From Alphaproteobacteria bacterium (GTDB lineage Bacteria > Pseudomonadota > Alphaproteobacteria > JABAAW01 > JAHZMA01), in assembly GCA_965206365.1 (NCBI GenBank), contig CBDBJL010000008.1, forward strand, positions 268-64,267: a stretch of DNA of 64,000 nt, read 5' to 3'. Shown one piece after another: positions 32,721-52,498 of the stretch; within the stretch, counting starts at the first letter, position 1; each line of letters opens with the position of its first letter. Position numbers and translations under genes: made by a program. Under the pieces are notes generated by a model, which worked only from the letters and a program-made list of their open reading frames with translations, made no database searches and was not told where the DNA came from.

Positions 32721-34520
32721 ATGCGTTTAATTTTAACAATTTTTTTGGTTTTAATGTCGTTATCGATGAGTATTGTCCTCGGCATTGTGAGTTTGGCTTA
32801 CGCCCAAGAAGAAACACAATCAATATCTTCTGTGGCTCAGGAACAAAAATTTATAACTGCGGCACGCAATGGTAATTTACAAGAAATTACTGAGCTAATC
32901 GCATCTGGCATTAAAGTTAATGTAACCGATGTTAATACTGGGCGTAATGCTTTGCATGAAGCGGCTAGCCGTGCGCATCTTGGTGTTATTGAAGTTTTAC
33001 TTGCAAATGACCGAGAAATTATTGACCAGCAAGATGAGAGTGGCTATACCGCACTTCATATTGCCGTTGATAAAAGGCATCTAAGCGTGGTGACCTCGCT
33101 TGTTGATAAAGGGGCAGATATTAACATTGCTCTGGCAAATGGAGAAAGTCCGTTACATACCGCATTACGCAAAAATTACATCCCAATCGTTCGTTACCTT
33201 ATGGGCAAAAATGCAGTAATTTCTGTAGATAATAAAGGCCTAACACCGCTTCATTATGCAGTTTCGGGTGGCTATATTGATATTGCTGAACAAATTTTGG
33301 CTTTAGAAGCAGAGATTGAACTCCCAGATCAACTTGGCAACACTCCTTTGCACTATGCAGCCATGTCGGGTCAACTGGATATGACTGCCTTTTTACTCCT
33401 AAAAGGTGCTGATCCCTATGTACGCAATGGAAAACAACAAACCCCTTCAATCCTTGCTAGTGGCAATGGCCATCCCCGCGTTCTCTCACTCATCCGTATT
33501 TATCAAAACGACCCCTCTTTGGCAAAAGTGGTGTTTCGCAGTAATGTCACCCCTGATTTTAGTGGCTGGCGTGATAGCTTGCCTGCGCGTATTGCCGATG
33601 GTGCTAACCAAAATGCCCTCCCTCAATTGCAAGATATGGTGACACAAATTTCAGAACGTTATTTAAGCTTAGTTGATATTACAATTCCCAGACTTATTGA
33701 ACGCCCTCAGCTTCCAGCACCTTTAGATGTTCGCCAAACTTTGTTTGAATCAGATTATGAATTTGATTTCAGGGTGAATAACGAGGTCGGAGAATATAGA
33801 AATATTTTCTATCGTCTCCAACAAACCTTTGGACAAGATGTTAACAGCCGTAACGCACGAATATCTTCATTACGCGAACGCGTAGCGTTACGCCGTAGTA
33901 ATCTTGATAAAATGTTGCCACTTTTCAAACGCGATGCCCTATACGAGATTATGCGTAGTTTTCGCCTTGAAGATCCTTTATTTAATGCCAGAACCGGTGA
34001 GCTTTCATTCTTATTAACGGCAACGGGTGCTGTTTATCAACAAAGAATTGCAATTCAGCCCCATGATGCTGATATTGTCGAAAAACTTTATACAGCACCG
34101 CAAAATGCCGATGTATCAGTAACCTTAATTATTGAGGCTGATTATATTGTTTTGGGTGATGTTTACATTGAATATGATGAAGAAATAATTTTTAAAGCCG
34201 AACTTGTAACCATTGATGCAGATGGCAATACCATCAGCCGTGGCAGTGCGTTAACAATTAATGGCGATGCTATTGGTAACAAAGTAGAACAAGCTTTAAC
34301 GCTTGATTCTGTGTTTCAACAACAAGATCCAGATCTTGTAGTAAACGCAACAATTGCCAATGTTCGCTACTCTGATAATCGTGGTGTTCCTATTATTTAC
34401 AACGATAACGTCGCTGAAGTTTTAAATGAATTATCCGATGATGATGTTGATGCCCGGTTAGATAATGATGAAGAATCTGATATTCTTACCGATGATATCG
34501 TTGCATCTTCAGAACTTTAA
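32721..34520 (+). CDS. Secreted ankyrin-repeat protein with an uncharacterised ~350-aa C-terminal region and acidic tail
   Basis: Signal peptide MRLILTIFLVLMSLSMSIVLGIVSLAYAQE. About 6 ANK units (NALHEAASRAH, TALHIAVDKRH, SPLHTALRKNY, TPLHYAVSGGY, TPLHYAAMSGQ). The remainder has no motif I recognise and ends DDDVDARLDNDEESDILTDD. Confidence 0.7.
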   Translation: MRLILTIFLVLMSLSMSIVLGIVSLAYAQEETQSISSVAQEQKFITAARNGNLQEITELIASGIKVNVTDVNTGRNALHEAASRAHLGVIEVLLANDREIIDQQDESGYTALHIAVDKRHLSVVTSLVDKGADINIALANGESPLHTALRKNYIPIVRYLMGKNAVISVDNKGLTPLHYAVSGGYIDIAEQILALEAEIELPDQLGNTPLHYAAMSGQLDMTAFLLLKGADPYVRNGKQQTPSILASGNGHPRVLSLIRIYQNDPSLAKVVFRSNVTPDFSGWRDSLPARIADGANQNALPQLQDMVTQISERYLSLVDITIPRLIERPQLPAPLDVRQTLFESDYEFDFRVNNEVGEYRNIFYRLQQTFGQDVNSRNARISSLRERVALRRSNLDKMLPLFKRDALYEIMRSFRLEDPLFNARTGELSFLLTATGAVYQQRIAIQPHDADIVEKLYTAPQNADVSVTLIIEADYIVLGDVYIEYDEEIIFKAELVTIDADGNTISRGSALTINGDAIGNKVEQALTLDSVFQQQDPDLVVNATIANVRYSDNRGVPIIYNDNVAEVLNELSDDDVDARLDNDEESDILTDDIVASSEL

Positions 34521-36124: not shown

Positions 36125-38842
36125 CTAATTCGCTTGTCTGCGTAAAAATGCCGGAATATCCAATTCTTCCCGACTTAATAACTCAGCACCCATTTCTGCC
36201 TCTGTCGCAATTTGCGCATCGCTAACATTCTCATCAAAAGGCAATGAAAAAATATCAGGTTGTGCTTCGTTACTAAATTCTTGTTTCTTTTTCTGCATGA
36301 TTCGATTTTTTTTATCATTTTGCTTTTTTTGCTTCTGATTTTCTTTTACCGGATTTTCCTCTTGAGCGCGCAAACTTATGCCTCTACTGTTGGCTGGACT
36401 ATTCATCGCTTCGTGATAGTGACTATTCTTCGAATTTAGAGGTTGTTGTTGGTTGGCAAATTCGAAATGTTCGGTTTCCCCATTATGGGCATATGAATAT
36501 TGTTGGTCTGCATTTTGTTGCCTGGCAATTTTCTCATCGGCAATTTTCTTAGCAGCAATTTTCTCAGCGGCAATTTGCACATGTTCTTGTCTTTGTTGTA
36601 CTTCTTCTGCGCGTTGTTGCACATGTTCTTGTCTTTGTTGCACTTCTGCGCGTTGTTGCGCATATTCTTGCCTTTGTTGCACTTCTGCGCGTTGTTGCGC
36701 ATATTCTTGCCTTTGTTGCACTTCTGCGCGTTGTTGCGCATATTCTTGTCTTTGTTGCACTTCTTCTGCGCATTGTTGCGCATATTGCTGCTCTCTTGAT
36801 TGCAATTCTGGCCTCGCAATCGCAGGGTTTTGCGCCATGTTCGCACGAATTTTATGCATTGCTTGAGTTGGATTTTGTGAAGCCCGCTCTATTTCTGCGT
36901 CAATTTGTGATAATTTTGCTTCCACCTCAAAAAGATTTTGTATCGCTAAATCTTCATTATTTTCTATAATTTTAGAATCATCTGGAAGCTGATTATTATG
37001 TGCAATTTGAATTTGCGCCCGCAATTGCTTAATTTTCAATTCCGCCTCAGCAATATTCATTTGCCGAACATTCCCCTTCACTGCTAAATTGTGTGCCTGT
37101 AAGTTTTGTGCCTGTAAGTTTTCGGTATGGCTTGGTGCAAAATCAGCTTGCAACCTTTCTGCTTGGGAAATTTCTGGCATTTCGCTTTTTTCAAGTGCAT
37201 ATTGCGTATTAATATCTTCTACCTGTTTCCCCGCGATTGAACGATTAATATTCGCTACAGTCTCATTGGTGAAATTGGCACAAATCGCATCGTCAATCAC
37301 CATTTCATGAATGGGTGGCAAAGGTCCAAATCTCTTCCCTTGCAACTTTGTGGCCTCATTATTGGGCGTCGTTACCACCTCATTTGCAACCGTCTCATAG
37401 TAATTCTCCACCGGCTGCATTATTGCTGGTTGTTGAACTGCTGGTTGGGGTGTTGGCGTTTGTACCGTTGTTGGTTGTTGAACTGCTGGTTGGGGTGTTG
37501 GCGTTTGTACCGTTGCTGGTTGTTGCGCTGTTGGTTGTTGAACTGCTGGTTGGGGTGTTGGCGTTTGTACCGTTGCTGGTTGTTGCACTGCTGGTTGGGG
37601 TGTTGGCGTTTGTACCGTTGCTGGTTGTTGCGCTGTTGGTTGTTGAACTGCTGGTTGGGGTGTTGGCGTTTGTACCGTTGCTGGTTGTTGCACTGAATTG
37701 ACATCAAAGTTTAATTCAGGCTCTAATTTAGGCTGCGTAGTAACTGGTTGAGACTCTTTTTTTGCTTCGATTCTGGGTTCCAATAAAGCTTCTGCCTGAA
37801 AATCGGACGCAGAATAATTTTCTTCTGAATCTGCGGGTGAAGATTCTTCTTGATGAATTGGCTCAACGCCCGTAGCAAGAATCGTAATTCTAATTTTATC
37901 TTGCATTTTCTGGCTAATAGAGGCTCCAAAAATCAATTGTGCCGAGGCTGGTGCAGCCTCTCGAATCATGGTAACGGCTTTGTCTACCTCGATTAAACCC
38001 AAATCCGAACCGCCAGAAACATTAATTAAAAAACCCCTCGCCTTGCCAATATCTACGCCATCCAAAAGCTGGTTGGATAACGCCTTTGTAGCAGCCCGTA
38101 AAGCACGCCCCTCTCCCTCCTCTTCAGCAGAACCAATCAAGGCACGCCCACGTTCATTCATGATTGTCGCAATATCAGAAAAATCTAAATTAATCACCCC
38201 AGGCAAGGTCATCAAATCTGTAATCCCTCTAATTCCTGATGCCAACACATCATCAGTCATTTTAAAGGCATCCTTAAATGTTGTCTTTTCATCCGCAATC
38301 ATTAACAAATTCTGATTGTTAATAACCACCAAAATATCAACATGTTTCCCTAATTCTTTAATTCCGCGCTGAGCTAATTTTAAGCGCATATTGCCTTCAA
38401 AGTGAAAAGGCTGCGTTACCACCGCCGCAGTTAAAACACCCATCTCACGTGCATATTTTGCAACCAAAGGCGTTGCCCCCGTGCCTGTGCCCCCCCCCAT
38501 ACCAGCGGTAAGAAATAATAGCTGGGTATCACGCAAAACCTCTTTAATATCTTCGCTAGCTTCTTGCGCAGACCGCGCGCCAATATCGGGCTTGGCACCC
38601 GTACCTTGCCCTTGAGTAATTTCAAAACCCAATTGAATTTTTTTATTCGGCAAACTTCTTGATAACGCTTGCTGGTCAGTATTGCAAACGATAAACTCCA
38701 CACCCTCCATATTCGAGCGGATCATCGAATCGACAGCATTGCCTCCGGCACCACCAACACCGATAACTTTTATTCTTGCCCGAATATTTTGGAAGCTTTG
38801 AGCCTGTTCATTTTTATCAACCAATGAAATATTAAGCACCAT
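36125..38842 (-). CDS. ftsZ: Cell division GTPase FtsZ with a very long (~560 aa) repeat-containing C-terminal linker
   Basis: Tubulin signature GMGGGTGTGATP in an N-terminal GTPase core of about 320 aa. Conserved C-terminal peptide DIPAFLRRQAN at the very end. Everything in between is low-complexity. Confidence 0.9.
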   Translation of the reverse strand: MVLNISLVDKNEQAQSFQNIRARIKVIGVGGAGGNAVDSMIRSNMEGVEFIVCNTDQQALSRSLPNKKIQLGFEITQGQGTGAKPDIGARSAQEASEDIKEVLRDTQLLFLTAGMGGGTGTGATPLVAKYAREMGVLTAAVVTQPFHFEGNMRLKLAQRGIKELGKHVDILVVINNQNLLMIADEKTTFKDAFKMTDDVLASGIRGITDLMTLPGVINLDFSDIATIMNERGRALIGSAEEEGEGRALRAATKALSNQLLDGVDIGKARGFLINVSGGSDLGLIEVDKAVTMIREAAPASAQLIFGASISQKMQDKIRITILATGVEPIHQEESSPADSEENYSASDFQAEALLEPRIEAKKESQPVTTQPKLEPELNFDVNSVQQPATVQTPTPQPAVQQPTAQQPATVQTPTPQPAVQQPATVQTPTPQPAVQQPTAQQPATVQTPTPQPAVQQPTTVQTPTPQPAVQQPAIMQPVENYYETVANEVVTTPNNEATKLQGKRFGPLPPIHEMVIDDAICANFTNETVANINRSIAGKQVEDINTQYALEKSEMPEISQAERLQADFAPSHTENLQAQNLQAHNLAVKGNVRQMNIAEAELKIKQLRAQIQIAHNNQLPDDSKIIENNEDLAIQNLFEVEAKLSQIDAEIERASQNPTQAMHKIRANMAQNPAIARPELQSREQQYAQQCAEEVQQRQEYAQQRAEVQQRQEYAQQRAEVQQRQEYAQQRAEVQQRQEHVQQRAEEVQQRQEHVQIAAEKIAAKKIADEKIARQQNADQQYSYAHNGETEHFEFANQQQPLNSKNSHYHEAMNSPANSRGISLRAQEENPVKENQKQKKQNDKKNRIMQKKKQEFSNEAQPDIFSLPFDENVSDAQIATEAEMGAELLSREELDIPAFLRRQAN
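36575..36790 (-). repeat. 39/42-nt tandem repeat in the ftsZ linker (encodes EVQQRQEYAQQRA units)
   Basis: Translation reads AEEVQQRQEYAQQRAEVQQRQEYAQQRAEVQQRQEYAQQRAEVQQRQEHVQQRAEEVQQRQEHV. The plus-strand unit is CACTTCTGCGCGTTGTTGCGCATATTCTTGCCTTTGTTG. Confidence 0.85.
37426..37695 (-). repeat. 45-nt (plus 15-nt insert) tandem repeat in the ftsZ linker (encodes QQPATVQTPTPQPAV[QQPTA])
   Basis: Five 45-nt units start at 37426, 37471, 37531, 37576 and 37636. 15-nt units lie at 37516, 37621 and 37681. The units are almost identical at the nucleotide level. Confidence 0.9.
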
Positions 38843-39115: not shown

Positions 39116-40462
39116 TTAACTTGCTAAACGTCTTTTTTGATTCCTGCTAGGTGATTCTTTGCTTAATTTCTTTAATTTGTCAAGCCATGAATTTGATTTT
39201 CTTTCCTTTTTTTGCATATGCGCATAATCTGGAACCTGAGTATAGGCTAATTTCAGCAATCCAAGTGCTGTAGTATAAGCCCGACTATTCCCAGAAAATG
39301 TTAAGCCCAAAGCGTGCGGAGCGGTTTGCATCAAAATCCGCCTTGATAAATATTCACGAGCAATCGGCAATAATCCCGGCAACTGCCCCCCACCCCCAGA
39401 AAGCACCACCACAGCATCTTTTGGCATTTTTGTAAAAGTTTTCGCAACATAATCAAAAATTTCTTCCACGCGTGGGGTAATAATACGGGGTAACAACATA
39501 GTAATATCTGCTCCTTTTTGGGCAACAGAACTTTGTATGCCAAATTGACTACGTTTTATCTGATTTTGTATTTCTTCTCGCCCACATCCGTTATTTTTAT
39601 CGGTCATTTTGCCCACAACAAAACCTTTTTCGCATTTTAGGCTTTCCGCCTCAAGCCGACTCACCCCAAAAGCTTCCATAATATCACGCGTAATATAATC
39701 GCTACCAATATTCAACCACCGCAATTCTTGTAACAATCCGCCCTGAAACCAACCTATGGTAACCATATGCGTACCCATATTCAAAATAATCGTTTCATGA
39801 TCTAATAACATGTTTTCTTGGATTACAAAGAAGTCTGCATACGAGCTTGCCACAATTTTTATAACCTCAACACCCACCAAATCAAGCAATTTTATCAGTT
39901 GCTGGTGAACATTTTCTTTCATGGCAATCATGCTTAATGTTGCATCTAATTTTGCCGAACACGCCCCAACCGGATCCGCGTGAGGCAGATCATCTAGGGC
40001 AAAAGATTTTACCAAAACATGCAAAATTACTCTTTTGCACCCCCCGACAACCATCTCATCTAGCCCTTCTTTTGCGCTAATAAAATCATCCGAGGCATTT
40101 TGCAACCAATCCTGCAATTGGGCTTGAGTTAATGCAAGAGTGCCTAATTTTTTCGTGAGATTAAATTCTTCACGATGCAAATGGGTTGCCGAGAAACTTA
40201 ACAGAACTTGACTAACAGTAATTCCTGCATCTTTTTGTGCGATGGCAATCGCCGCGCTAACAGATTTTTCAGCAAGCTTAAAATCAAAAATAGATTCTCC
40301 CAAAATACCACAAGATTCCACCCGTCCCAATCCACATAATTCTATTTGCTTACTAGCATTTTTTTTCGCAATCAAACAGGTAACATAGCCTGAGCCAATA
40401 TCCAACACAGCAACATGTTCATCATCCTTTTTCAGGGTTTGATGGAAAGTTGTGGTGATCAT
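39116..40462 (-). CDS. ftsA: Cell division protein FtsA
   Basis: Actin-like ATPase pattern (VLDIGSGYVTCLIA, NMGTHMVTI, VLSGGGGQLPGL). It lies between ftsQ and ftsZ. Confidence 0.85.
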   Translation of the reverse strand: MITTTFHQTLKKDDEHVAVLDIGSGYVTCLIAKKNASKQIELCGLGRVESCGILGESIFDFKLAEKSVSAAIAIAQKDAGITVSQVLLSFSATHLHREEFNLTKKLGTLALTQAQLQDWLQNASDDFISAKEGLDEMVVGGCKRVILHVLVKSFALDDLPHADPVGACSAKLDATLSMIAMKENVHQQLIKLLDLVGVEVIKIVASSYADFFVIQENMLLDHETIILNMGTHMVTIGWFQGGLLQELRWLNIGSDYITRDIMEAFGVSRLEAESLKCEKGFVVGKMTDKNNGCGREEIQNQIKRSQFGIQSSVAQKGADITMLLPRIITPRVEEIFDYVAKTFTKMPKDAVVVLSGGGGQLPGLLPIAREYLSRRILMQTAPHALGLTFSGNSRAYTTALGLLKLAYTQVPDYAHMQKKERKSNSWLDKLKKLSKESPSRNQKRRLAS

Positions 40463-41250
40463 GAATGTTTGTTATTTTCTAAAACTGGTGTTAATTGATA
40501 AGGATTATTGCTAATTGCGGCACGATCAGGGGTTCGTAGATCAATTACGGAAGATTGCATCGATAAAATCTGGAACTGCGTGTCTAGCCATTCCAGCCGA
40601 ACAAAAGCTTCGTCGATATTCGTTCCTGGCAAATGCACCACAATGCCATTTTCCAAATAAATACTCCACCGAAACGCCCGTGAAATTTTCGCACCAATAA
40701 ATTTATTTTGTAGTGCCGGATATGATCCCAACACTGCTGCTAATAAATAAAACGATTCAGGTGCATCTGTGCCTGAAATCACCGGTAAATCAGAATAAAT
40801 TTTCAAATCATCCACACTGCCAATGATACTGCCATCATGGGCAATTAAATGCATTTCTCCTTGATTTTGCCAGATCGCCTCAGGGCGATGCTCAGTCAAA
40901 TAAATATGCACACTTCCGGGCAACACCCGAACAATGTGGCTGTGGCGCACCCAAGGAAGGGAATCGATTCGAAACTTCACTTCGCGCAGATTAACCGCAA
41001 ATACCGAAAAGCCTTGCTCAAGCCCGGAAGCTTTTAATAATTGCTCACGCGGAGTTGCACTAATATTAAAAATTTGCACTTCCTGAAGAGAAAACCCACC
41101 ATAGCGTGTAACCTTATAAAAACCATCTCCCCAAATCAGCCACCCTAAAAAAACTACACCACTCAACCAAAATATCGCGCGAAGATAATAGGGGATCGTT
41201 TTCGCATAATTCGCCCCTAACCGTTCCTGATTTGCATACGCATCACTCAC
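40459..41250 (-). CDS. ftsQ: Cell division protein FtsQ
   Basis: One N-terminal TM helix followed by a POTRA-like region (VQIFNISATPREQLLKASGL...NLREVKFRIDSLPWVRH). The position is conserved. Confidence 0.8.
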   Translation of the reverse strand: MSDAYANQERLGANYAKTIPYYLRAIFWLSGVVFLGWLIWGDGFYKVTRYGGFSLQEVQIFNISATPREQLLKASGLEQGFSVFAVNLREVKFRIDSLPWVRHSHIVRVLPGSVHIYLTEHRPEAIWQNQGEMHLIAHDGSIIGSVDDLKIYSDLPVISGTDAPESFYLLAAVLGSYPALQNKFIGAKISRAFRWSIYLENGIVVHLPGTNIDEAFVRLEWLDTQFQILSMQSSVIDLRTPDRAAISNNPYQLTPVLENNKHS

Positions 41251-42254
41251 AAGCCCTCTCCTAACTTTTGTTTTTTTAACTTTCGGGGAGATTCCTGTAA
41301 GGCTTGAAGCACAATTTCATCACATAAATCAACAAATGAGAGCTGATTTAATCTTGCCTGTTCTGGCACTAATGATAATTCAGTCATGCCGGGATGCGTG
41401 TTAATTTCTAAGAAATAGAGTGTATCTTCTTCAGGGGAATAGCGAAAATCAGAACGGCTTAATTGCTTGCAACCCAACACCTCGTGCGCCAGTTCAGCCT
41501 GTTGTTTACATTTTTCACTTAAAGTTTTAGATATTTCTGCCGGGCAAATATGAGTGGTAATCCCATCATGATATTTGGCATCATAATCATAAAACCCACG
41601 ATTGGGAATTAATTCGGTAACGCCCAACGCACCACGCCCTTGCAATACAGCTACAGTAAGTTCCCTTCCCGGAACATAACGTTCAATCATATGCGGAGTT
41701 CTCATTTTCCATTCCCTTCGCTCATGCGATTCACGATTCATAATTATATGAACGCCCCGACTTGAACCATCACTTACCGGTTTCAGTACGTAAGGAGGCG
41801 CAAGAGGAAATTCTTGCGGTGAATCTGCATTTTTATTTATTAAATGACTTTTTAATAAATAACTTTTAGCAAATGTTATGCCAAAAGGGGTGAGAATTTT
41901 CTTCGTGAGCAATTTATCCATTGCCATTGCCCCGGCCGCAATGCCCGAATGGGTATAGGGAATTTGCATCAAGCTCAGCAAACCCGCAATCGAACCATCC
42001 TCGCCATAATTGCCATGCAAAGCATTAAAAACCAAATCTGGTGGCGTTAGCCGTAGCGCATCTACCAAATTTTTAACATCGCCATAAGCATCGTAAAATA
42101 TCGCATTCCAGCCTTTTTTTTTCAGAGCATCAGCACAATTTTTACCTGAATTTAATGAAACTTCACGCTCTGACGACCAGCCCCCAGAAAGTACCAAAAT
42201 AGTAGTAGAGTGACGCTGTGCAAGTGAGATTTCAACCATGCCAATATCCAACAC
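41247..42254 (-). CDS. ddl: D-alanine--D-alanine ligase
   Basis: VLSGGWSSEREVSLNSG, HGNYGEDGSIAGLL and EINTHPGMT. An alternative start is at 42239. Confidence 0.9.
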   Translation of the reverse strand: MLDIGMVEISLAQRHSTTILVLSGGWSSEREVSLNSGKNCADALKKKGWNAIFYDAYGDVKNLVDALRLTPPDLVFNALHGNYGEDGSIAGLLSLMQIPYTHSGIAAGAMAMDKLLTKKILTPFGITFAKSYLLKSHLINKNADSPQEFPLAPPYVLKPVSDGSSRGVHIIMNRESHERREWKMRTPHMIERYVPGRELTVAVLQGRGALGVTELIPNRGFYDYDAKYHDGITTHICPAEISKTLSEKCKQQAELAHEVLGCKQLSRSDFRYSPEEDTLYFLEINTHPGMTELSLVPEQARLNQLSFVDLCDEIVLQALQESPRKLKKQKLGEGL

Positions 42255-43146
42255 GCCGAATTTCCCATTCCAACAAAATGCCAGAATTCATTTGAACCTG
42301 AGCGCGCACCGCTTCACCCAAATTTTCTAAATCAGCCCCGCTAGCCTTATTTTTATTAATCATAAAATTGCAATGCTTATCCGACATCATCGCATCACCC
42401 ACGCAATAACCGCGCATACCTGCTTGCTCAATTAATTCCCAGGCTTTCCCATCCTTAGGATTCTTAAAAGTAGAGCCCCCTGTACGGCTACCGATCGGTT
42501 GCGTTTGCGCTCGTCGGGTTTGAATTGCCAAAATCGCCTCTGCAATTTTTGCCTGATCTCCGGCCTGAGTTGCAAAGCGTGCCTGCAGGATAATCGCACC
42601 TTCAGGCAATAGAGATTTACGATACGCAAATGCCAATTCTGCGCTTGGAAACCATTGCCGCGAACCATCAACATTCATAATTTCTACCGCTTGCAAACAT
42701 GCCGCCGTATCGGATTCATATGCGCCAGCATTCATCGCCACCGCGCCGCCTACTGTTCCAGGAATCCCAGCGTAAAATTCTAAACCTGTCCGACTGCAAG
42801 TTTGTGTAAATCGTGCCAAATGTGCATCCATAACCGCCGCCCCCGCAGTGATGATGCCGGTTTCGGCATCATAATCTAACCCCGAAAACCCTTTGCCAAG
42901 CTTCAACACAATGCCAGCAATGCCACCATCGCGCACCAATAAATTAGAACCAACACCAATGGGGAAATAAGGCATATTTTTGGGTTTTTGTTGCAAAAAA
43001 TTACTTAAATCCTGGGCATCTTGCGCAGTAAAAAATAATTCTGCCACCCCGCCAGTGCGAAACCAAACATGGCGCGCCATCGTTTCAGAACAACTAAGTT
43101 TTCCTTTCAGCTCTGAGAAAATACTTTGCTTAGGTTGCATGATCAT
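42232..43146 (-). CDS. murB: UDP-N-acetylenolpyruvoylglucosamine reductase
   Basis: FRTGGVAELF, GVGSNLLVRD, GIPGTVGGAVAMNAGAY and GSTFKNP. Confidence 0.9.
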   Translation of the reverse strand: MIMQPKQSIFSELKGKLSCSETMARHVWFRTGGVAELFFTAQDAQDLSNFLQQKPKNMPYFPIGVGSNLLVRDGGIAGIVLKLGKGFSGLDYDAETGIITAGAAVMDAHLARFTQTCSRTGLEFYAGIPGTVGGAVAMNAGAYESDTAACLQAVEIMNVDGSRQWFPSAELAFAYRKSLLPEGAIILQARFATQAGDQAKIAEAILAIQTRRAQTQPIGSRTGGSTFKNPKDGKAWELIEQAGMRGYCVGDAMMSDKHCNFMINKNKASGADLENLGEAVRAQVQMNSGILLEWEIRRVGYWHG

Positions 43147-43160
43147 TTAGCAATCATCGA

Positions 43161-44579
43161 TTATAAAAGTTTTTGCAATTGGGCGGGCACAGTATGCGCC
43201 CAGATTGTACTAGAGCCCGCACCTAGAAAAATAATCATGTCGGTCTTCACACTATGATTCTCTTGCACGAGCCTACTTAAAACCGTTGCCAAATCTTCAC
43301 CGCCTGTAACCCCAATCACATGTTTATGCCCAGAATCACTAATCGCTTGCACCAAAGAATCACGATCAACCCCCTCAATAGGAACCTCACCCGCTGGATA
43401 AACATCACTAATCAACACAATATCAGCATCATGAAACGCAGTTTGAAATTCATTAAACAAACTTTGCAAACGCGAGTAACGATGCGGTTGGGCAACCACA
43501 ATTAATTGCCCATGGCAAATACCACGACACGCCTTCAACACAGCGCGAATTTCAACAGGATGATGCGCATAATCATCAATAATCTTAATCCCTGCCACTG
43601 TTCCCGTATGGCTAAAACGCCGTTTGACACCCTCAAAATTACTTAAACCATCACGAATGGTTTGTAGCTCAAAATTAAATTCCAGCCCGATTGTAACCGC
43701 TGCCAATGCATTTTGCACATTATGTTCACCATACATGGGGAGAAATAATTTTTCCAAAACCACCCCATCATATTGGGAAAAATTAACCTCAACATCAAAA
43801 TATGTACCCTCACGACCAGATTGCAAATTGAAAGCCCGCACCATAGATTGCGTATTAAAGCCATAAGTTAATACGCGCCGATCTGTTAACTGTGACATTA
43901 ACCGTAAAACTTCGGGATGATCTGCACACAAAACCGCAAACCCATAAAAGGGAATATTTTGAACAAAGCGTAGAAATGTCGCTTTTAAATTTTCAAAATC
44001 ACCATAATGTTCCATATGTTCCGGATCAATATTCGTAATCACGGCAATGCTTGCCGGCAATTTCACAAAACTACCATCGCTTTCATCCGCCTCAGCAATC
44101 AACCATTCGCTTCTACCTGTGCGGGTATTGCTACCATAGCTATTAATAACCCCACCATTCACCACCGTAGGATCATAATTTGCAGTTTCAAATAATGCCG
44201 CAACCAAAGATGTTGTCGTGGTTTTTCCATGCGTACCACCAATGGCAATCGATTTTTTTAGGCGCATCAATTCTGCTAACATTTCCGCACGCTGAATTAC
44301 CGGAATATGCGCCACACGTGCCGCTTGAATTTCAGGATTATCTGCCGGTACGGCTGAAGAAATTACCAACACCCCAATATCTTTAACATGCTTGGCATCA
44401 TGCCCAATCATAATCGGAATTTCTTTTTTTCGCAATCGTTCCACATTCGCATTATCGGTAAGATCCGAACCTTGCACCCTACAACCTAGATTATGTAACA
44501 ACTCAGCAATTCCCGACATTCCAATGCCACCAATGCCTGTAAAATGGACAATTAAATGATTATTCGGGAAATTAAGCAT
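43161..44579 (-). CDS. murC: UDP-N-acetylmuramate--L-alanine ligase
   Basis: HFTGIGGIGMSGIAELL and GGTHGKTTTTSL. Confidence 0.9.
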   Translation of the reverse strand: MLNFPNNHLIVHFTGIGGIGMSGIAELLHNLGCRVQGSDLTDNANVERLRKKEIPIMIGHDAKHVKDIGVLVISSAVPADNPEIQAARVAHIPVIQRAEMLAELMRLKKSIAIGGTHGKTTTTSLVAALFETANYDPTVVNGGVINSYGSNTRTGRSEWLIAEADESDGSFVKLPASIAVITNIDPEHMEHYGDFENLKATFLRFVQNIPFYGFAVLCADHPEVLRLMSQLTDRRVLTYGFNTQSMVRAFNLQSGREGTYFDVEVNFSQYDGVVLEKLFLPMYGEHNVQNALAAVTIGLEFNFELQTIRDGLSNFEGVKRRFSHTGTVAGIKIIDDYAHHPVEIRAVLKACRGICHGQLIVVAQPHRYSRLQSLFNEFQTAFHDADIVLISDVYPAGEVPIEGVDRDSLVQAISDSGHKHVIGVTGGEDLATVLSRLVQENHSVKTDMIIFLGAGSSTIWAHTVPAQLQKLL

Positions 44580-44583
44580 GGGG

Positions 44584-45771
44584 TTATGCCTCCTTTGCTA
44601 ATTTTTCTTGTAGTGAATCCAAAATTAACATTACCATATTTTCTGCAGCTTGCGGATTCCCAAACCTGCCCGCACAAGCGGCTGCCATTTCAAGACGATA
44701 AGGATTCGAAAGCAGATTCATAATCAGATCTGAAAGGGTTGCAATATTTAAGTGGCTTTGCGGAATCGTCCAACCCCCACCCGCCTCAGTAATACGCGTG
44801 GCATTGATCATTTGATGATCATCAGTGGCAAAAGGATAAGGCACAAAAATCGCCGGACGCCCAATTGTTGTAATTTCTGCCAATGTTGCCGCACCTGAAC
44901 GACAAATAATTAACTGAGCTTGAACCATTTCCGTACTAATATCAGTAAAAAAACTCGCAATATCCGCTGTAATATTCTGTTTTTGATAAAATTCTTTTAC
45001 GGTTTCTAATTGCTCAAAACGCACTTGCTGCACAATATGTAAGCGTTTTTTAATATCATCTGGTAGGTTGGCAAGTATCGTCGGAATTTTATCACCAAAA
45101 ACCCGCGCCCCTTGCGAGCCACCCACAATGAAAATTCTTATTTTCCCGGTTTTCCCGGGCTTGATATAGGGTTCTTGCGCTTTCACCATAATTTCTGAGC
45201 GCACAGGATTCCCACTCCACATAATCTTGCCTTTCGACGTTTCCGGAATCCCATCTGTAACTTCAAAAGCAGTGGCGATATAATTCATACCGGGGGCTAA
45301 CAGCCGATTGGTCCGTCCTAATCTGGCATTTTGTTCATGAATCATGGTTGGAAAATCCAACAAATTCGCTGCAAACATCGTTGGCAACGAGGAATACCCC
45401 CCAAAACCAACAACAATATCGGGCCGCAAACGATGCAACAACCGCCATGCCTGCAACAAGCCAGCCAAAAGCTTTACCCCGGCACCCAAAATTTGCCAAG
45501 GTTTGCGCCCAATAATGCCAGCAGCATAAATCTGGAAAATCGGCAAAGATTGAAAAATTGTTACCATACGCTCATTACCTCTTTTATCCGTAATCATGCA
45601 TATTTTGAATTTCTGCGGATGATTCTGCAAAGCTCGAATCAATGCTTCGGCAGGAAAAACATGCCCTGCCGTTCCCCCTGTTGCCAAAACCACATGAGGG
45701 ACATATTCGGCTTTGCGAGGTTGATTGCCATTTTTCCTTAAATTTTCTTTTGATTCAACAATATTCATCAC
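44584..45771 (-). CDS. murG: Undecaprenyldiphospho-muramoylpentapeptide beta-N-acetylglucosaminyltransferase
   Basis: LATGGTAGHVFPA, GGSQGA and RSGAATLAE. Confidence 0.9.
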   Translation of the reverse strand: MMNIVESKENLRKNGNQPRKAEYVPHVVLATGGTAGHVFPAEALIRALQNHPQKFKICMITDKRGNERMVTIFQSLPIFQIYAAGIIGRKPWQILGAGVKLLAGLLQAWRLLHRLRPDIVVGFGGYSSLPTMFAANLLDFPTMIHEQNARLGRTNRLLAPGMNYIATAFEVTDGIPETSKGKIMWSGNPVRSEIMVKAQEPYIKPGKTGKIRIFIVGGSQGARVFGDKIPTILANLPDDIKKRLHIVQQVRFEQLETVKEFYQKQNITADIASFFTDISTEMVQAQLIICRSGAATLAEITTIGRPAIFVPYPFATDDHQMINATRITEAGGGWTIPQSHLNIATLSDLIMNLLSNPYRLEMAAACAGRFGNPQAAENMVMLILDSLQEKLAKEA

Positions 45772-45817
45772 GATCTTTACGTATTTTCTAAAAAGTTAAT
45801 TCCATTCACAGTGCCAG

Positions 45818-46954
45818 TCAGCCCTGCCCAATTTCGCTTTCTTGCATTTGATGCGTATTTTCATCTATTACAGACTTTCGGCTCAGTGCCAACAAAGTCC
45901 CCATCGCAAACCCCATGGCTAACATAGCAGTTCCCCCTGAAGAAATGAAGGGCAAGGTTGTACCTTTCGGGGGAATCACCCCAACAACCGAGCCAATATT
46001 AACCCATACTTGCCCGGCAAATTGCGTTAAGATCCCCAGCAAAGTGAAAACAACAAATAAATCATCACTATCCATTGCCCGCAATATCCCCCGAAGTACA
46101 ATAAACGCATAAGCAATAAGCACAATCACGCAGGCCATAATGCCTAATTCTTCACCCAATACGGCAAAAATAAAATCACTTTGCGCATCAAAAAGATAAC
46201 CCTTTAATGCGCCACCACCAAGCCCTTCACCCAAAAATCCACCAGAATGAAAAGCTTTCAAAGAAAGATTAACTTGTGAAAAATGATCTGCACCACTTAA
46301 AAAACCTTGCACCCGATCGGTAACATGTGGAAACACAACATAAGTGGTTACCAGCCCCAATAAGATAATACTGACCCATAATAAAATAAAAATAATCGGC
46401 ATGCCAGCCACAAACCATTGCACCAAAAAAATTAACGTAACAAAAACACTTTGCCCAACATCAGGCTGTAGCAATAATAGTACCATCATGCTGGCGTAAA
46501 TTCCCCAAACAAAACCCAATCCTGGCACAGGCTCACCCTTATTTTGCATCGCAAGCAACCATGCAGTAACAATAGCAAAAGCCGGTTTCGCAAATTCTGA
46601 AGGTTGCAACGTAACGCCCCATATTGCTAACCAACGGTTGGAACCATTATAGGCCTCGCCCCAAAATAGAACCATAATCAACATAATGAAAGTTGTAATT
46701 AATAAATATAACCCTAACCTTTTAATCATACAGCTATCGAATAATGAAACCACAATAATTAGCATAAAGCTAATCATGGCAAAGAAACTATGTTTTGTTG
46801 CTAAATAATAAGGTGGAACTTGCAAACGAGTTGCAATTTCTGGCGATATCGAAAAGCTAAGAACGCACCCCATCACCAAAAGCAATAAACACGTAAATAG
46901 CGACCAACCATCGAGTGATGTTAGCCAATCACGTGCCGGATCAACCACTCGCAT
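45818..46954 (-). CDS. ftsW: SEDS-family cell division protein FtsW (lipid II polymerase/flippase family)
   Basis: Polytopic membrane protein containing LQPSEFAKP, QPDVGQ and PPKGTTLPFISSGGT. Confidence 0.85.
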   Translation of the reverse strand: MRVVDPARDWLTSLDGWSLFTCLLLLVMGCVLSFSISPEIATRLQVPPYYLATKHSFFAMISFMLIIVVSLFDSCMIKRLGLYLLITTFIMLIMVLFWGEAYNGSNRWLAIWGVTLQPSEFAKPAFAIVTAWLLAMQNKGEPVPGLGFVWGIYASMMVLLLLQPDVGQSVFVTLIFLVQWFVAGMPIIFILLWVSIILLGLVTTYVVFPHVTDRVQGFLSGADHFSQVNLSLKAFHSGGFLGEGLGGGALKGYLFDAQSDFIFAVLGEELGIMACVIVLIAYAFIVLRGILRAMDSDDLFVVFTLLGILTQFAGQVWVNIGSVVGVIPPKGTTLPFISSGGTAMLAMGFAMGTLLALSRKSVIDENTHQMQESEIGQG

Positions 46955-48431
46955 TTTTCAGTTTCTCTACCGCATCAACAAAGACATCTCCGCGATGCAT
47001 GAAATTATCAAATTGATCAAATGAGGCCGCTGCTGGGGAGAGTAAAATTGTCGCAAAATTCGCTTTGTCTGTATCCCCTTGATCATCCGCAAAATCTTTG
47101 ATCGCCTGGCTGTAGGCTGCATTAATGGCTTGCTGCATAGTTTGAGTTTTCATGGCAACCATGCTTTGCGCAAAAATTTCATGCAATCTGTCTGCGCCAG
47201 AACCATAAAAAAATCCTGCTTTCACATTGCCAATATAATCATACAATCGCCGATGATTTTCATCTTTCAATTTCCCACCCGCAATCCAATAAATATTGCG
47301 ATAACTCAACAACGCCATTTGCGTTGCTTCTACATTGGTAGCCTTGCTATCATTAATAAAATGCACATTATCGCAAGCACCTAAATATTCTTGCCGATGT
47401 GCCAATCCGGGAAAAGTTTCAAGCCCGGTCAAAATATCTTCACGACTCATATTATTGGCACGACAAATTATATAAGCTGCCGCAATATTTTCTGCATTAT
47501 GTCTGCCCGGCAAATGGGGTAATAAATTCAAATCAATAATTTTTACGCAAGGCTGCCCTTCTTGTACTTCTAGCAAAAAATTATTCTCGCGATAAATCCC
47601 ATTGCCGACGGGAACTAACCCCGAAAATAAACTAAGCTTACGCTGTTCTGCAAGCATTGCCCCGGCGATGCCAAGCCCTGTTTCACTACTTACCCCAATA
47701 ATCGCTAAATCATCTTCTGCTTGATGCGTAAAAATTCGTAATTTTGCGTTAATATAATTTTCCATCGAACCATGATGTTTCAAATGATCTGGCGTAATAT
47801 TAAGCAAGGCGGCTTGCCCAAAGCGAGCATAACGAACATGATGCAATTGATAAGATGAAAGTTCCAACACATAATAACCACCCGCACTTAACAGCGGTAA
47901 ATCCAAAACAGGTTGCCCCAAATTGCCACCGGCAATAACTTCAAGCCCAGCCTGGGCCATAATATGCGCAACCAAAAAAGTTGTGGTAGATTTACCATTA
48001 GTGCCGGTAATCCCAATAAAATTACATTGCGGTGCCGCTTGATAGAGTAAATCAACATCACTTAAAATTTGGCAATCAAACAAATTGGCTCGCAAAAATG
48101 CCACATGATCATCAGGAATCCCCGGAGATGGCAACAAGGCATCAACATCTTGCCAAGAAAACGTATCATTAATATCACAAGGGCGCAAAGCATAATGTTT
48201 TTCCATAGCCACGCGATGCGCATGATTATCATCCCAAATCTTTACTTTGGCACCCGAAAGCAAAAAACTTTCAACAGCTGCCCTACCGCTAATGCCCAAT
48301 CCCACTACAAAAATTGTTTTGCCGGAAAAACCTGGTAATTTTTGTCCCACGAACTCTTCATTCTCCTGATATTTTAGCGTAATTTTAAAGTTGCCAGCCC
48401 AATGAAACCCATAATCACGGCAATAATCCAA
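46941..48431 (-). CDS. murD: UDP-N-acetylmuramoylalanine--D-glutamate ligase
   Basis: VVGLGISGRA and GITGTNGKSTTT. The true start is probably downstream of 48431 (for example a GTG near 48350), because the ORF overlaps the mraY 3' end. Confidence 0.85.
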   Translation of the reverse strand: MDYCRDYGFHWAGNFKITLKYQENEEFVGQKLPGFSGKTIFVVGLGISGRAAVESFLLSGAKVKIWDDNHAHRVAMEKHYALRPCDINDTFSWQDVDALLPSPGIPDDHVAFLRANLFDCQILSDVDLLYQAAPQCNFIGITGTNGKSTTTFLVAHIMAQAGLEVIAGGNLGQPVLDLPLLSAGGYYVLELSSYQLHHVRYARFGQAALLNITPDHLKHHGSMENYINAKLRIFTHQAEDDLAIIGVSSETGLGIAGAMLAEQRKLSLFSGLVPVGNGIYRENNFLLEVQEGQPCVKIIDLNLLPHLPGRHNAENIAAAYIICRANNMSREDILTGLETFPGLAHRQEYLGACDNVHFINDSKATNVEATQMALLSYRNIYWIAGGKLKDENHRRLYDYIGNVKAGFFYGSGADRLHEIFAQSMVAMKTQTMQQAINAAYSQAIKDFADDQGDTDKANFATILLSPAAASFDQFDNFMHRGDVFVDAVEKLKNASG

Positions 48432-49453
48432 AACCTAATCACAATCGTTGCTTCTGCCCAGCCACGCTTTTCAAAATGATGATGCAGTGGTGCCATCGCA
48501 AAAATACGTTTCCCCAATAATTGAAACGATGCTACTTGAATAATCACTGAAACAGTTTCTAGAACAAACAAACCTCCAATAATACCCAGTACGATTTCAT
48601 GTTTTGCCAACACACTTACCATGCCTAGCGCACCACCAATGGCAAGTGCCCCTGTATCGCCCATAAATATTTTTGCTGGCGGAGCATTAAACCACAAAAA
48701 ACCTAATGAAGCCCCCATCAAACTTGCACAAAACACTGCCAGCTCACCCGCATCACTAATATAAGCAATGCCTAAATAAGTTGCATAAACACTATGCCCT
48801 GCCAAATAAACAATCATACCCAAACAACCGGTCGCAATAATCACAGGCCCAATTGCCAACCCATCAAGCCCATCGGTTAAATTAACGGCATTGGCAGAAC
48901 CCACAATCACAAAAGCAGCAAAGGCCAAATAAAACCACCCTAAATCTAGCAAGAAATTTTTAACAAAGGGAAAAGCCAAATGATTTGCCAAATCGGATAT
49001 AGAAATATATGCCAACAAACTGCATGCACAAACCGCAAGCAATAATTCAATCCCCAAACGCAACCGCGCCGAAAGCCCTTTATTTCTACCCCTTACCTTA
49101 TGGCGATCATCCACAAAACCAATCAGCCCAAAACTTGCAGTAACAAAAAACACAAGCCCAATATAAGGATTGCTTAAATCTGCCCAAATCAATGTACTTA
49201 CCAGCATCGCAATCAAAATCATTAACCCACCCATTGTTGGTGTTCCGATTTTTTGCAAATGCCCCTCAGGCACATCTTCACGCACAGTATTGCTGCCCTT
49301 TTGTTGCGCTTTTAGCCAACGAATAATCGGACCGCCAATGATAAAGCATACCAATAACGCACTAATAAAAGCCCCACCACTTCTGAACGTAATGTAACGA
49401 AATAAATTAAAAAAAATATTAATATCTGAATATTGACTAAGATAAGCGAACAT
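48374..49453 (-). CDS. mraY: Phospho-N-acetylmuramoyl-pentapeptide transferase
   Basis: GTPTMGG, NAVNLTDGLDGLA and MGDTGALA. Confidence 0.9.
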   Translation of the reverse strand: MFAYLSQYSDINIFFNLFRYITFRSGGAFISALLVCFIIGGPIIRWLKAQQKGSNTVREDVPEGHLQKIGTPTMGGLMILIAMLVSTLIWADLSNPYIGLVFFVTASFGLIGFVDDRHKVRGRNKGLSARLRLGIELLLAVCACSLLAYISISDLANHLAFPFVKNFLLDLGWFYLAFAAFVIVGSANAVNLTDGLDGLAIGPVIIATGCLGMIVYLAGHSVYATYLGIAYISDAGELAVFCASLMGASLGFLWFNAPPAKIFMGDTGALAIGGALGMVSVLAKHEIVLGIIGGLFVLETVSVIIQVASFQLLGKRIFAMAPLHHHFEKRGWAEATIVIRFWIIAVIMGFIGLATLKLR

Positions 49454-49497
49454 TATTTTATTTTATCCTTTTAAAAATTAAAAACATACCTAAATTA

Positions 49498-52494: not shown

Positions 52495-52498
52495 TTTT

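What the first reader, a model, noticed from the sequence alone, without database searches (positions are those of the whole stretch)
36125..38842. 905-aa FtsZ: a giant disordered linker built from two young tandem-repeat arrays
The GTPase core (GGGTGTG signature) and the terminal FtsA-binding peptide (DIPAFLRRQAN) are canonical. They are separated by about 560 residues of low-complexity sequence. For comparison, E. coli FtsZ is 383 aa in total, and Caulobacter FtsZ, with its already long linker, is 508 aa. Two arrays are almost identical at the nucleotide level: five 45-nt units plus 15-nt inserts at 37426-37695 (P/Q/T-rich QQPATVQTPTPQPAV), and 39/42-nt units at about 36575-36790 (charged, helical EVQQRQEYAQQRA). 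Smaller NLQAQ and AAEKIA repeats are also present. T7 and T8 runs inside the gene (for example near 36300-36340) remain in frame, so the ORF is under selection. Linker length is known to affect Z-ring function and cell-wall synthesis, which makes this an extreme natural variant.
Basis: partly seen in the sequence, partly recalled or inferred. Interest (0 to 1): 0.7.

Follow-up and report, generated by a model that had tools for sequence, protein, structure and literature searches.

The report
Giant repeat-expanded FtsZ division protein

Summary
ORF 36125-38842 (-) encodes a 905-aa FtsZ with a canonical core (aa 23-327), a canonical FtsA-binding peptide (DIPAFLRRQAN) and about 565 residues between them. 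It sits in a dcw cluster directly after ftsA.

Both tandem arrays are real:
- Five 45-nt units plus two 15-nt inserts lie at 37436-37690, with 2 nt differences in total.
- Five 39/42-nt units plus one degenerate unit lie at 36563-36802.

The interpretation needs three corrections:
- Giant size is a lineage trait. The only relatives found (7 proteins, 64-69% core identity) are 702-833 aa. The two arrays are absent from them and add about 137 aa.
- The spacer is not uniformly disordered filler. It carries islands conserved across the lineage: LPPIHEMV, two amphipathic helices, a basic patch and a 54-aa C-terminal module. In relatives the linker dN/dS is about 0.29.
- AlphaFold2 predicts the charged array as one roughly 100-residue helix (pLDDT 85-95). 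Only the P/Q/T array looks disordered.

A profile of the tail found just 4 clusters among 1.84 billion representatives, all of them FtsZ. Published linker ranges are 2-330 and 13-433 aa.

Verdict: a new variant of a known kind, of moderate interest. Repeat copy number and function are untested.

The parts
36125..38842 (-). ftsZ coding sequence, 905 aa plus stop
   Evidence: ORF list; Pfam Tubulin + FtsZ_C; TIGR00065 363 bits; the only FtsZ-like sequence in the window
37862..38776 (-). GTPase/polymerisation core, aa 23-327. Includes the G-box GGGTGTG (38477-38497) and the T7 loop NLDFSD (38174-38191)
   Evidence: Pfam; PDB FtsZ chains aligned over aa 18-327, E about 1e-87; invariant columns in A1
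37691..37861 (-). Proximal acidic, Ser/Pro-containing linker segment, aa 328-384 (NCPR -0.16)
   Evidence: composition; no predicted structure, pLDDT <35
37436..37690 (-). Tandem array 1: five 45-nt units (QQPATVQTPTPQPAV) plus two 15-nt inserts (QQPTA), aa 385-469. Uncharged, 26% Pro, 29% Gln, 20% Thr
   Evidence: absent from all relatives; predicted unstructured
37289..37321 (-). Conserved linker island 1, LPPIHEMVIDD (aa 508-518); PIHEM is invariant in the lineage
   Evidence: alignments A1/A2; absent from the 113 other top FtsZ hits
36995..37045 (-). Conserved helix island 2, AELKIKQLRAQIQIAHN (aa 600-616); K603, L607, R608, I611, A614 are invariant
   Evidence: predicted helical at modest confidence, block-mean pLDDT about 42-69
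36875..36937 (-). Second amphipathic helix, NLFEVEAKLSQIDAEIERASQ (aa 636-656), with heptad-like hydrophobic spacing
   Evidence: predicted helix; 3.5-residue hydrophobic periodicity, reached by 4% of shuffles; partly conserved
36563..36802 (-). Tandem array 2: one degenerate plus five 39/42-nt units (EVQQRQEYAQQRA), aa 681-760
   Evidence: insertion relative to all relatives; each unit contains the small palindrome TGCGCGTTGTTGCGCA
36503..36805 (-). Predicted continuous alpha-helix of about 100 residues (aa 680-780), covering array 2 and the (A/D)EKIA repeats (36524-36565)
   Evidence: AF2 pLDDT 85-91 in the full-length model and 83-95 in the tail-only model; no Pro/Gly in aa 679-787
36284..36355 (-). 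Lys-rich basic patch, aa 830-853 (NCPR +0.33); contains the A8/A7 runs (T8/T7 on the + strand)
   Evidence: basic patches at the equivalent place in relatives
36128..36289 (-). Lineage-conserved C-terminal module, aa 852-905: KKQEFSN-x6-FSLPFD-x-VSD...EA..G..L.R.ELDIPAFLRRQAN. The last 13 aa (36128-36166) are the canonical FtsA-binding peptide
   Evidence: dN/dS 0.13 in relatives
39116..40462 (-). ftsA, immediately upstream; the presumed membrane tether that binds the C-terminal peptide
   Evidence: Pfam FtsA 5.4e-17; same gene order in relatives L059-L061

Best explanation
This is the bona fide division FtsZ of an uncultured, ankyrin-rich and probably host-associated alphaproteobacterium. It belongs to a rare lineage in which the C-terminal linker has grown to roughly 370-580 residues and become modular.

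Modules of the linker, in order:
- a disordered acidic and P/Q-rich spacer;
- a short conserved motif (LPPIHEMV);
- two conserved amphipathic helices;
- a variable middle section;
- a basic patch;
- a conserved 54-residue C-terminal module ending in the FtsA-binding peptide.

In this genome two recent in-frame tandem duplications, probably by replication slippage or unequal recombination, added about 70 residues of P/Q/T spacer and about 67 residues of E/Q/R/A sequence. The second addition is predicted to form part of a helix of about 100 residues. Together they push a roughly 770-aa protein to 905 aa.

Mechanism (inferred):
- The core polymerises with GTP.
- The terminal peptide docks on FtsA at the membrane.
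- The long linker acts as a flexible tether and spacer between filaments. Its length is loosely constrained, so in-frame repeat gains are tolerated.
- The conserved islands are likely docking or self-association sites specific to the lineage.

Shown here: identity, anatomy, the arrays' absence from all recovered relatives, the conserved islands, and purifying selection in relatives. Inferred: all biochemical behaviour.
For: - FtsZ identity and intact catalytic motifs.
- dcw context (ftsQ-ftsA-ftsZ-lipA), syntenic with relatives.
- Relatives are 702-833 aa and share the linker islands.
- The islands are absent from the 113 other top FtsZ hits.
- The tail profile hits only 4 clusters among 1.84e9 representatives, all FtsZ, so it is not a fused foreign domain.
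- The linker matches no Pfam, NCBIfam or PDB family.
- The arrays are insertions relative to every relative and nearly identical at the nucleotide level.
- Relatives carry their own small, different tandem repeats in the linker, so repeat turnover recurs here.
- dN/dS for P0005 versus P0007 is 0.026 in the core, 0.29 in the linker and 0.13 in the C-terminal 54 aa.
- The C-terminal peptide is in frame after the linker in all members.
- Literature: a wide range of linker lengths is tolerated in vitro and in vivo, and alphaproteobacterial linkers are typically 3-6 times that of E. coli.
Against: - No reads or population data are available, so repeat copy number is unverified.
- The window's own proteins are not on record elsewhere.
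- dS between the window gene and its nearest relative is saturated, so selection on this particular linker and on the arrays themselves could not be measured.
- The tail has the lowest Lempel-Ziv complexity of 115 alphaproteobacterial FtsZ tails (0.87 against a median of 0.98).
- Low-complexity tails and a rigid helical linker were deleterious in B. subtilis FtsZ. Tolerance here is therefore not a given.
- AF2 used only 6-7 sequences and even part of the core was modelled poorly.
- Only 64 kb of the genome was seen, so a second ftsZ cannot be excluded.
Confidence: 0.78

Rival explanations
1. The linker is an active structural module rather than a passive tether. The conserved amphipathic helices and the repeat-built helix of about 100 residues would self-associate or act as a rigid rod. 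FtsZ would then have a built-in cross-linker or spacer, doing the job of a Zap-type protein, or a strong tendency to form condensates. On this reading the repeat expansion is adaptive. This overlaps with the best explanation except on whether the arrays are functional.
For: - High-confidence long helix in two independent AF2 runs.
- No Pro or Gly over 109 residues.
- Conserved helices, one with 3.5-residue periodicity.
- The linker is under purifying selection in relatives.
- A long alphaproteobacterial FtsZ linker promotes condensates in Agrobacterium.
Against: - The long helix is built from an array that no relative has. Relatives have a D/Y/E-rich, probably disordered segment at that place.
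- The repeat helix shows no 3.4-3.75-residue hydrophobic periodicity above shuffles. It is only 32% charged, with 8 opposite-charge i/i+4 pairs per 100 residues. It is therefore neither a canonical coiled coil nor a canonical ER/K single helix.
- AF2 monomer models with shallow alignments readily draw helices for E/Q/R/A repeats.
Confidence: 0.2
2. The gene is real, but its exact length is an assembly artefact: the repeat copy number was expanded or collapsed during assembly.
For: - The arrays of 255 and about 240 nt have units that are 98-100% identical, which short reads cannot fully span.
- No independent copy of this allele exists in the collections searched.
Against: - The arrays carry positional variants: a synonymous T/G change, an A-to-T change, 15-nt inserts in a regular 105-nt higher-order pattern, and 39- versus 42-nt units. 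These are typical of a resolved rather than a collapsed array.
- All units are multiples of 3, so the reading frame and the conclusion of a giant FtsZ survive any miscount.
- Without the arrays the protein would still be about 770 aa, like its relatives.
Confidence: 0.12
3. This is a decaying or accessory ftsZ copy in a reduced symbiont genome, with division carried out by another FtsZ or by the host.
For: - Ankyrin-rich context suggests a host-associated lifestyle.
- The tail is unusually repetitive.
- Alphaproteobacteria often carry extra ftsZ copies.
Against: - The full-length ORF is intact and every catalytic motif is invariant.
- It occupies the canonical position after ftsA in a complete dcw cluster.
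- In relatives core dN/dS is 0.026 and C-terminal dN/dS is 0.13.
- Known extra alphaproteobacterial copies lie outside dcw and are truncated, not lengthened.
Confidence: 0.04

Closest known systems
Giant FtsZ of uncultured 'Alphaproteobacteria bacterium' MAGs (P0002-P0007 and fragment P0121; e.g. contig CBDETR010000004.1, 833 aa; JAHZMA01 X_S6_bin.7, 810 and 827 aa)
   Same: - 64-69% identity over the core.
- Same ftsA-ftsZ-lipA-polyketide cyclase order, with ankyrin genes nearby.
- Same linker islands (PIHEM, the K..LR..I..A helix, a basic patch, QEF..F.LPFD..DIPAFLRRQAN).
- P/Q-rich proximal linker.
   Different: - They are 702-833 aa.
- They lack both large arrays.
- They have only short tandem repeats of 9-36 nt in 2-7 copies, different in each lineage.
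- Where the window has the EVQQRQEYAQQRA helix they have a D/Y/E/H-rich segment.
Caulobacter crescentus FtsZ (508 aa, 172-aa linker) and Agrobacterium tumefaciens FtsZ-AT
   Same: - Alphaproteobacterial architecture: N-terminal peptide, core, long linker, and a DIPAFLRRQAN-type peptide that binds FtsA.
- Linker longer than in E. coli.
- Linker implicated in lateral filament interactions, cell-wall regulation and condensates.
   Different: - The linker here is about 3.3 times the Caulobacter one.
- It contains near-perfect tandem arrays and a predicted helix of about 100 residues.
- The linker island R-x-PSLFERVTG-x-GR was matched by a loose pattern in 55 of the 121 FtsZ proteins held, mostly alphaproteobacterial. 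It is not recognisable here. FSLPFD after a basic patch may be its diverged counterpart, which is conjecture.
Engineered B. subtilis FtsZ linker variants (Buske & Levin 2013; Cohan et al. 2018, bioRxiv 10.1101/301622)
   Same: They address the same variables: linker length, rigidity, charge patterning and sequence complexity.
   Different: - In those experiments a rigid helical linker and low-complexity tails impaired Z-rings or lowered protein stability. All 1,209 natural tails examined were of high complexity.
- This natural protein combines a repetitive tail (lowest complexity of 115) with a predicted long helix.
- My own approximate calculation of the charge-mixing parameter kappa is about 0.17, inside the natural range of 0.13-0.36.

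Membership tests
FtsZ (bacterial tubulin homologue, TIGR00065 / PF00091 + PF12327) | Tubulin/FtsZ GTPase domain with the glycine-rich G-box GGGTG(T/S)G | tested here: met
   PF00091 at 1.6e-43 over aa 23-183. GGGTGTG lies at aa 116-122 and is invariant in A1.
FtsZ (bacterial tubulin homologue, TIGR00065 / PF00091 + PF12327) | FtsZ C-terminal subdomain and T7 synergy loop (N-x-D-x-x-D) | tested here: met
   PF12327 at 2.4e-27 over aa 232-327. NLDFSD lies at aa 218-223 and aligns with NLDFAD of a solved FtsZ.
FtsZ (bacterial tubulin homologue, TIGR00065 / PF00091 + PF12327) | Score above the curated equivalog cut-off | tested here: met
   TIGR00065 scores 363 bits against a cut-off of 295.2.
FtsZ (bacterial tubulin homologue, TIGR00065 / PF00091 + PF12327) | Conserved C-terminal peptide that binds FtsA/ZipA-type anchors | tested here: met
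   ELDIPAFLRRQAN lies at aa 893-905. A matching [DE][IL]PAFLR[RK] peptide is present in 110 of the 120 FtsZ hits.
FtsZ (bacterial tubulin homologue, TIGR00065 / PF00091 + PF12327) | Position in the dcw cluster after ftsQ-ftsA | tested here: met
   ORFs at 39116-54244 include ftsA and a double Mur-ligase ORF (Pfam). Their order and sizes match the ftsW-murG-murC-murB-ddl-ftsQ-ftsA cluster annotated upstream of ftsZ in relatives.
FtsZ (bacterial tubulin homologue, TIGR00065 / PF00091 + PF12327) | GTP-dependent polymerisation and Z-ring formation | not testable with these tools
   Requires purified protein or imaging.
Intrinsically disordered FtsZ C-terminal linker (CTL) as defined in E. coli, B. 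subtilis and Caulobacter | No stable secondary structure along the linker | tested here: not met
   aa 328-575 and 781-870 are unstructured in AF2. aa 576-669 and 680-780 are predicted helical, the latter at pLDDT 85-95. This is a prediction only.
Intrinsically disordered FtsZ C-terminal linker (CTL) as defined in E. coli, B. subtilis and Caulobacter | Poor sequence conservation between orthologues | tested here: inconclusive
   Most of the linker is hypervariable (33-40% identity between lineage branches). It nevertheless contains invariant islands, and dN/dS is 0.29.
Intrinsically disordered FtsZ C-terminal linker (CTL) as defined in E. coli, B. subtilis and Caulobacter | Length within the reported natural range | tested here: not met
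   The linker is about 565 aa. Published ranges are 2-330 aa and 13-433 aa in 4,603 species.
Canonical coiled coil | Continuous hydrophobic seam with periodicity of about 3.5 residues | tested here: not met
   For the repeat helix aa 681-780, power at 3.4-3.75 residues is no higher than in shuffles. The 13-residue unit gives peaks near 3.3 and 6.6 residues. Helix 628-669 alone shows a 3.5-residue peak, reached by 4% of shuffles.
ER/K single alpha-helix (SAH) domain | Very high E/K/R content with dense i/i+4 salt bridges | tested here: not met
   The region is 32% charged and 32% Gln. It has 8 opposite-charge i/i+4 pairs in 100 residues.

The most novel reading that the evidence does not exclude
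In this rare alphaproteobacterial lineage the FtsZ 'linker' may have evolved into a functional scaffold rather than a passive tether. On this reading the conserved short motifs and amphipathic helices recruit lineage-specific partners or cross-link protofilaments. In this genome a tandem repeat would have created, de novo and recently, a rigid helical rod of about 15 nm inside the tether. That would be a natural experiment contradicting the B. subtilis rule that FtsZ tails must be flexible and of high complexity. It would also show how repeat expansion builds new structure in an essential cytoskeletal protein.
Probability: 0.2. Interest if true: 0.65.

Novelty: new variant of a known kind. Interest (0 to 1): 0.45.

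Why it matters
FtsZ linker studies rely on engineered variants of up to about 250-330 residues. They conclude that the linker must be flexible, well mixed in charge and not of low complexity.

This gene and its seven relatives are natural counter-examples at the far end of the distribution:
- Tails (from the end of the core) run from 371 to 580 residues.
- The linkers contain conserved embedded motifs.
- This one also has near-perfect tandem repeats and a predicted long helix.

They offer ready-made constructs for asking three questions: what limits linker length, whether embedded motifs are partner-binding sites, and whether repeat-born helices are tolerated or exploited. The finding also shows that an essential, highly conserved division gene can undergo rapid in-frame repeat turnover. 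It is not a new kind of system.

Tried and rejected
- Same or near-identical allele elsewhere, to check repeat number. Exact-protein look-ups for FtsZ, FtsA and the downstream 152-aa protein found nothing. A lineage-specific DNA pattern (QEF-x8-FxLPFD) found only three relatives' loci among 185,579 species genomes and none in JGI metagenomes.
- Taxonomic placement. Related-locus scans with FtsZ and PGK returned only distant hits of 36-59% identity from many phyla. Rfam found no rRNA in the window. The lineage stays 'unclassified alphaproteobacterium'.
- Fusion with a foreign domain: rejected. The linker has no Pfam, NCBIfam or PDB match. The tail profile found no stand-alone homologue among 1.84e9 representatives.
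- Canonical coiled coil or ER/K single helix for array 2: both tests were not met.
- Two ftsZ alleles in the MAG JAHZMA01 as evidence for paralogues: rejected. Both are followed by ORFs of the same size and order as lipA and the cyclase gene, and their dS is about 0.5, so they are co-binned relatives.
- Literature on tandem repeats in FtsZ linkers: none found.
- A structure-library search was not run, because isolated helices and low-pTM models (0.24-0.30) would give meaningless matches.
- dN/dS for the window gene itself was not computable, because dS is saturated against its nearest relative.
Full report
**Observation**

The ORF at 36125-38842 on the minus strand is intact and encodes 905 residues.
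- Pfam finds the Tubulin/FtsZ GTPase domain (aa 23-183) and the FtsZ C-terminal domain (aa 232-327).
- The NCBIfam ftsZ equivalog scores 363 bits against a cut-off of 295.
- Solved FtsZ structures align over aa 18-327 at about 1e-87.
- The G-box GGGTGTG, the T7 loop NLDFSD and the terminal ELDIPAFLRRQAN are all present.
- The gene lies directly downstream of ftsA, in a run of minus-strand ORFs that matches the dcw cluster annotated in relatives. It is followed by lipA.
- It is the only FtsZ-like sequence in the window.

**The repeats**

Array 1:
- It consists of five 45-nt units encoding QQP(A/T)TVQTPTPQPAV, at 37436-37690.
- Two 15-nt inserts (QQPTA) interrupt it, giving a 105-nt higher-order period.
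- Two units each differ from the other three, which are identical, by one nucleotide.

Array 2:
- It consists of five units of 39/39/39/42/39 nt encoding EVQQRQE(Y/H)(A/V)QQRA(E), at 36563-36760.
- A degenerate sixth unit lies upstream.
- Units 2 and 3 are identical.

Neither unit occurs elsewhere in the window, and shuffles gave no matches.

**Relatives**

- A search of 5.8 billion proteins found six complete relatives at 64-69% identity over the core, of 702, 723, 794, 810, 827 and 833 aa. Everything else is 57% identical or less and at most 667 aa.
- Their loci share the ftsA-ftsZ-lipA-cyclase order and ankyrin-repeat neighbours. One lies on a 1.93-Mb contig. The window also encodes large ankyrin proteins.
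- This points to a host-associated alphaproteobacterium, but I could not place it taxonomically.
- A profile of the tail (from aa 502 to the end) was searched against 1.84 billion cluster representatives. It hit four clusters, all FtsZ of this lineage, one of them a new fragment.
- The architecture is therefore very rare, and the tail is not a fused foreign protein.

**Anatomy of the linker**

The alignment of the seven proteins shows the linker is not featureless. Invariant or near-invariant islands are:
- LPPIHEMV-DD (aa 508-518);
- a helix carrying K603, L607, R608, I611 and A614;
- a second amphipathic helix (about aa 636-656);
- a basic patch;
- a 54-residue C-terminal module, KKQEFSN-x6-F(S/D)LPFD-x-VSD...EA..G..L.R.ELDIPAFLRRQAN.

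None of these islands occurs in the other 113 top FtsZ hits. A loose pattern for a different linker island, R-x-PSLFERVTG-x-GR, matched 55 of the 121 proteins held.

Both large arrays are insertions relative to every relative.
- Array 1 lies in a region that is P/Q-rich in all members.
- Array 2 replaces a D/Y/E/H-rich segment.
- Counting one ancestral unit each, the arrays add about 70 + 67 residues. Without them the protein would be about 770 aa, inside the lineage range.

Relatives have only short, lineage-specific tandem repeats in their linkers. In one relative the last 21 nt of ftsZ, including the stop codon, are themselves tandemly repeated downstream. Repeat turnover at this locus therefore recurs.

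**Structure prediction**

Two AlphaFold2 runs, full length and tail only, used alignments of 7 and 6 sequences. They agree:
- aa 328-575, which includes array 1, and aa 781-870 have no predicted structure (pLDDT about 25-35).
- Helices are predicted at about aa 576-616 and 628-669, with modest confidence.
- One continuous helix is predicted over about aa 680-780 at pLDDT 83-95. This is array 2 plus the EKIA repeats.
- There is no Pro or Gly in aa 679-787.

By simple tests the long helix has no hydrophobic periodicity of 3.4-3.75 residues above shuffles. It is only 32% charged, with few i/i+4 salt bridges. It is therefore neither a textbook coiled coil nor an ER/K single helix.

Confidence is limited. 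The alignment is shallow, pTM is 0.24-0.30, and even part of the core was modelled poorly.

**Selection**

- Between two relatives (P0005 and P0007, dS about 0.5-0.9), dN/dS is 0.026 in the core, 0.29 in aligned linker codons and 0.13 in the C-terminal 54 residues.
- The linker is thus constrained, though much less than the core.
- For the window gene dS is saturated against its nearest relative, so no such estimate exists for it or for the arrays.
- The strongest evidence that the linker is translated is that the conserved C-terminal module stays in frame after 370-580 linker codons in every member.

**Comparison with what is known**

- Reported linker lengths are 2-330 aa (Vaughan 2004, as cited in bioRxiv 10.1101/171280).
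- A survey of 4,603 cultured species gives 13-433 aa, mean 128 (bioRxiv 10.1101/2025.11.25.690400).
- Caulobacter's linker is 172 aa. Alphaproteobacterial linkers are typically 3-6 times the E. coli one and promote condensates in Agrobacterium (PMC13170164).
- The linker here is about 565 aa, or about 524 aa if the conserved C-terminal module is excluded. That is outside these ranges.
- I could not run a length-filtered survey of all public FtsZ proteins, so I do not claim a record.
- Linker lengths of 25-250 aa behaved alike in vitro, which fits tolerated expansion.
- In B. subtilis a rigid helical linker and low-complexity tails were deleterious, and all 1,209 natural tails examined were of high complexity (bioRxiv 10.1101/301622).
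- This tail has the lowest Lempel-Ziv complexity among 115 alphaproteobacterial tails under my own normalisation (0.87 against a median of 0.98).
- My approximate charge-mixing value kappa, about 0.17, is within the natural range.

**Most likely mechanism**

Shown here: a canonical FtsZ in canonical context, with a lineage-typical giant modular linker that two recent in-frame tandem duplications lengthened further.

Inferred:
- The core polymerises and the terminal peptide binds FtsA.
- The linker is a long tether and inter-filament spacer whose length is loosely constrained.
- The islands are lineage-specific docking or self-association sites.
- The arrays arose by slippage or unequal recombination. 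Each 39-nt unit carries a small palindrome that could favour slippage.
- The arrays are more likely tolerated than adaptive.

Rivals:
- an active scaffold or rod function for the helices and arrays (about 0.2, partly overlapping with the best explanation);
- a miscounted repeat number in the assembly (about 0.12, which would not change the main conclusion);
- a decaying or accessory copy (about 0.04).

**Verdict**

The finding is real and was read mostly correctly, but with three qualifications. The giant size is largely a lineage trait. The linker is modular, with conserved islands. One of the two 'disordered' arrays is predicted to be a long helix. I rate it a new variant of a known kind, with interest of about 0.45.

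Noticed in passing
window 49498-52494 (-): A single 998-aa ORF carries two complete sets of Mur-ligase domains. It looks like a MurE-MurF fusion within the dcw cluster.
   Followed up: partly
window 21571-21796 (+), inside the ankyrin-repeat gene 21407-23215: A 63-nt tandem repeat in 3.6 copies at 96% identity encodes an acidic segment. Recent in-frame repeats are therefore not confined to ftsZ in this genome. A second ankyrin protein lies at 32721-34520.
   Followed up: partly
window 38490-38498: A 9-base homopolymer (C9 on the + strand, G9 on the coding strand) encodes the GGG of the essential GTP-binding G-box of FtsZ. That is a slippage-prone tract in an essential motif.
   Followed up: no
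L085 2466-2554 (relative P0007, contig JAHZMA010000126.1): The last 21 nt of ftsZ, including its stop codon (CTGCGCCGTCAAGCTAATTAA = LRRQAN*), are tandemly repeated about four times just downstream of the gene.
   Followed up: partly
P0008-P0065 (alphaproteobacterial FtsZ hits): A loose pattern for a basic-flanked linker island, R-x-P-S-L-F-E-R-V-T-G-x-G-R, matched 55 of the 121 FtsZ proteins held, 51-130 residues (median 68) from the C-terminus. Many also carry QPRLxGLDPxDR just before the C-terminal peptide. I did not search the literature for this motif specifically; none of the papers I opened here mentions it.
   Followed up: partly
window 13699-13938 (-): A cobalamin riboswitch (89.7 bits) lies between the pgk gene and a 213-aa ORF at 12763-13404.
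   Followed up: no
window 5146-6225 (-): An ORF encodes a Mu-type phage portal protein (PF06074, 2e-81), suggesting a prophage or gene-transfer-agent remnant.
   Followed up: no
L061/L062 and L085 (MAG JAHZMA01, X_S6_bin.7): One MAG holds two giant ftsZ alleles of 810 and 827 aa. Their cores are 97% identical and dS is about 0.5. Both are followed by ORFs of the same size and order as lipA and the cyclase gene, so the bin probably mixes two related populations.
   Followed up: yes
L060 6390-7866 (relative P0002): ftsA is called as two genes of 253 and 219 aa in this relative. This may be a frameshift or an assembly error in a contig with 4x coverage.
   Followed up: no
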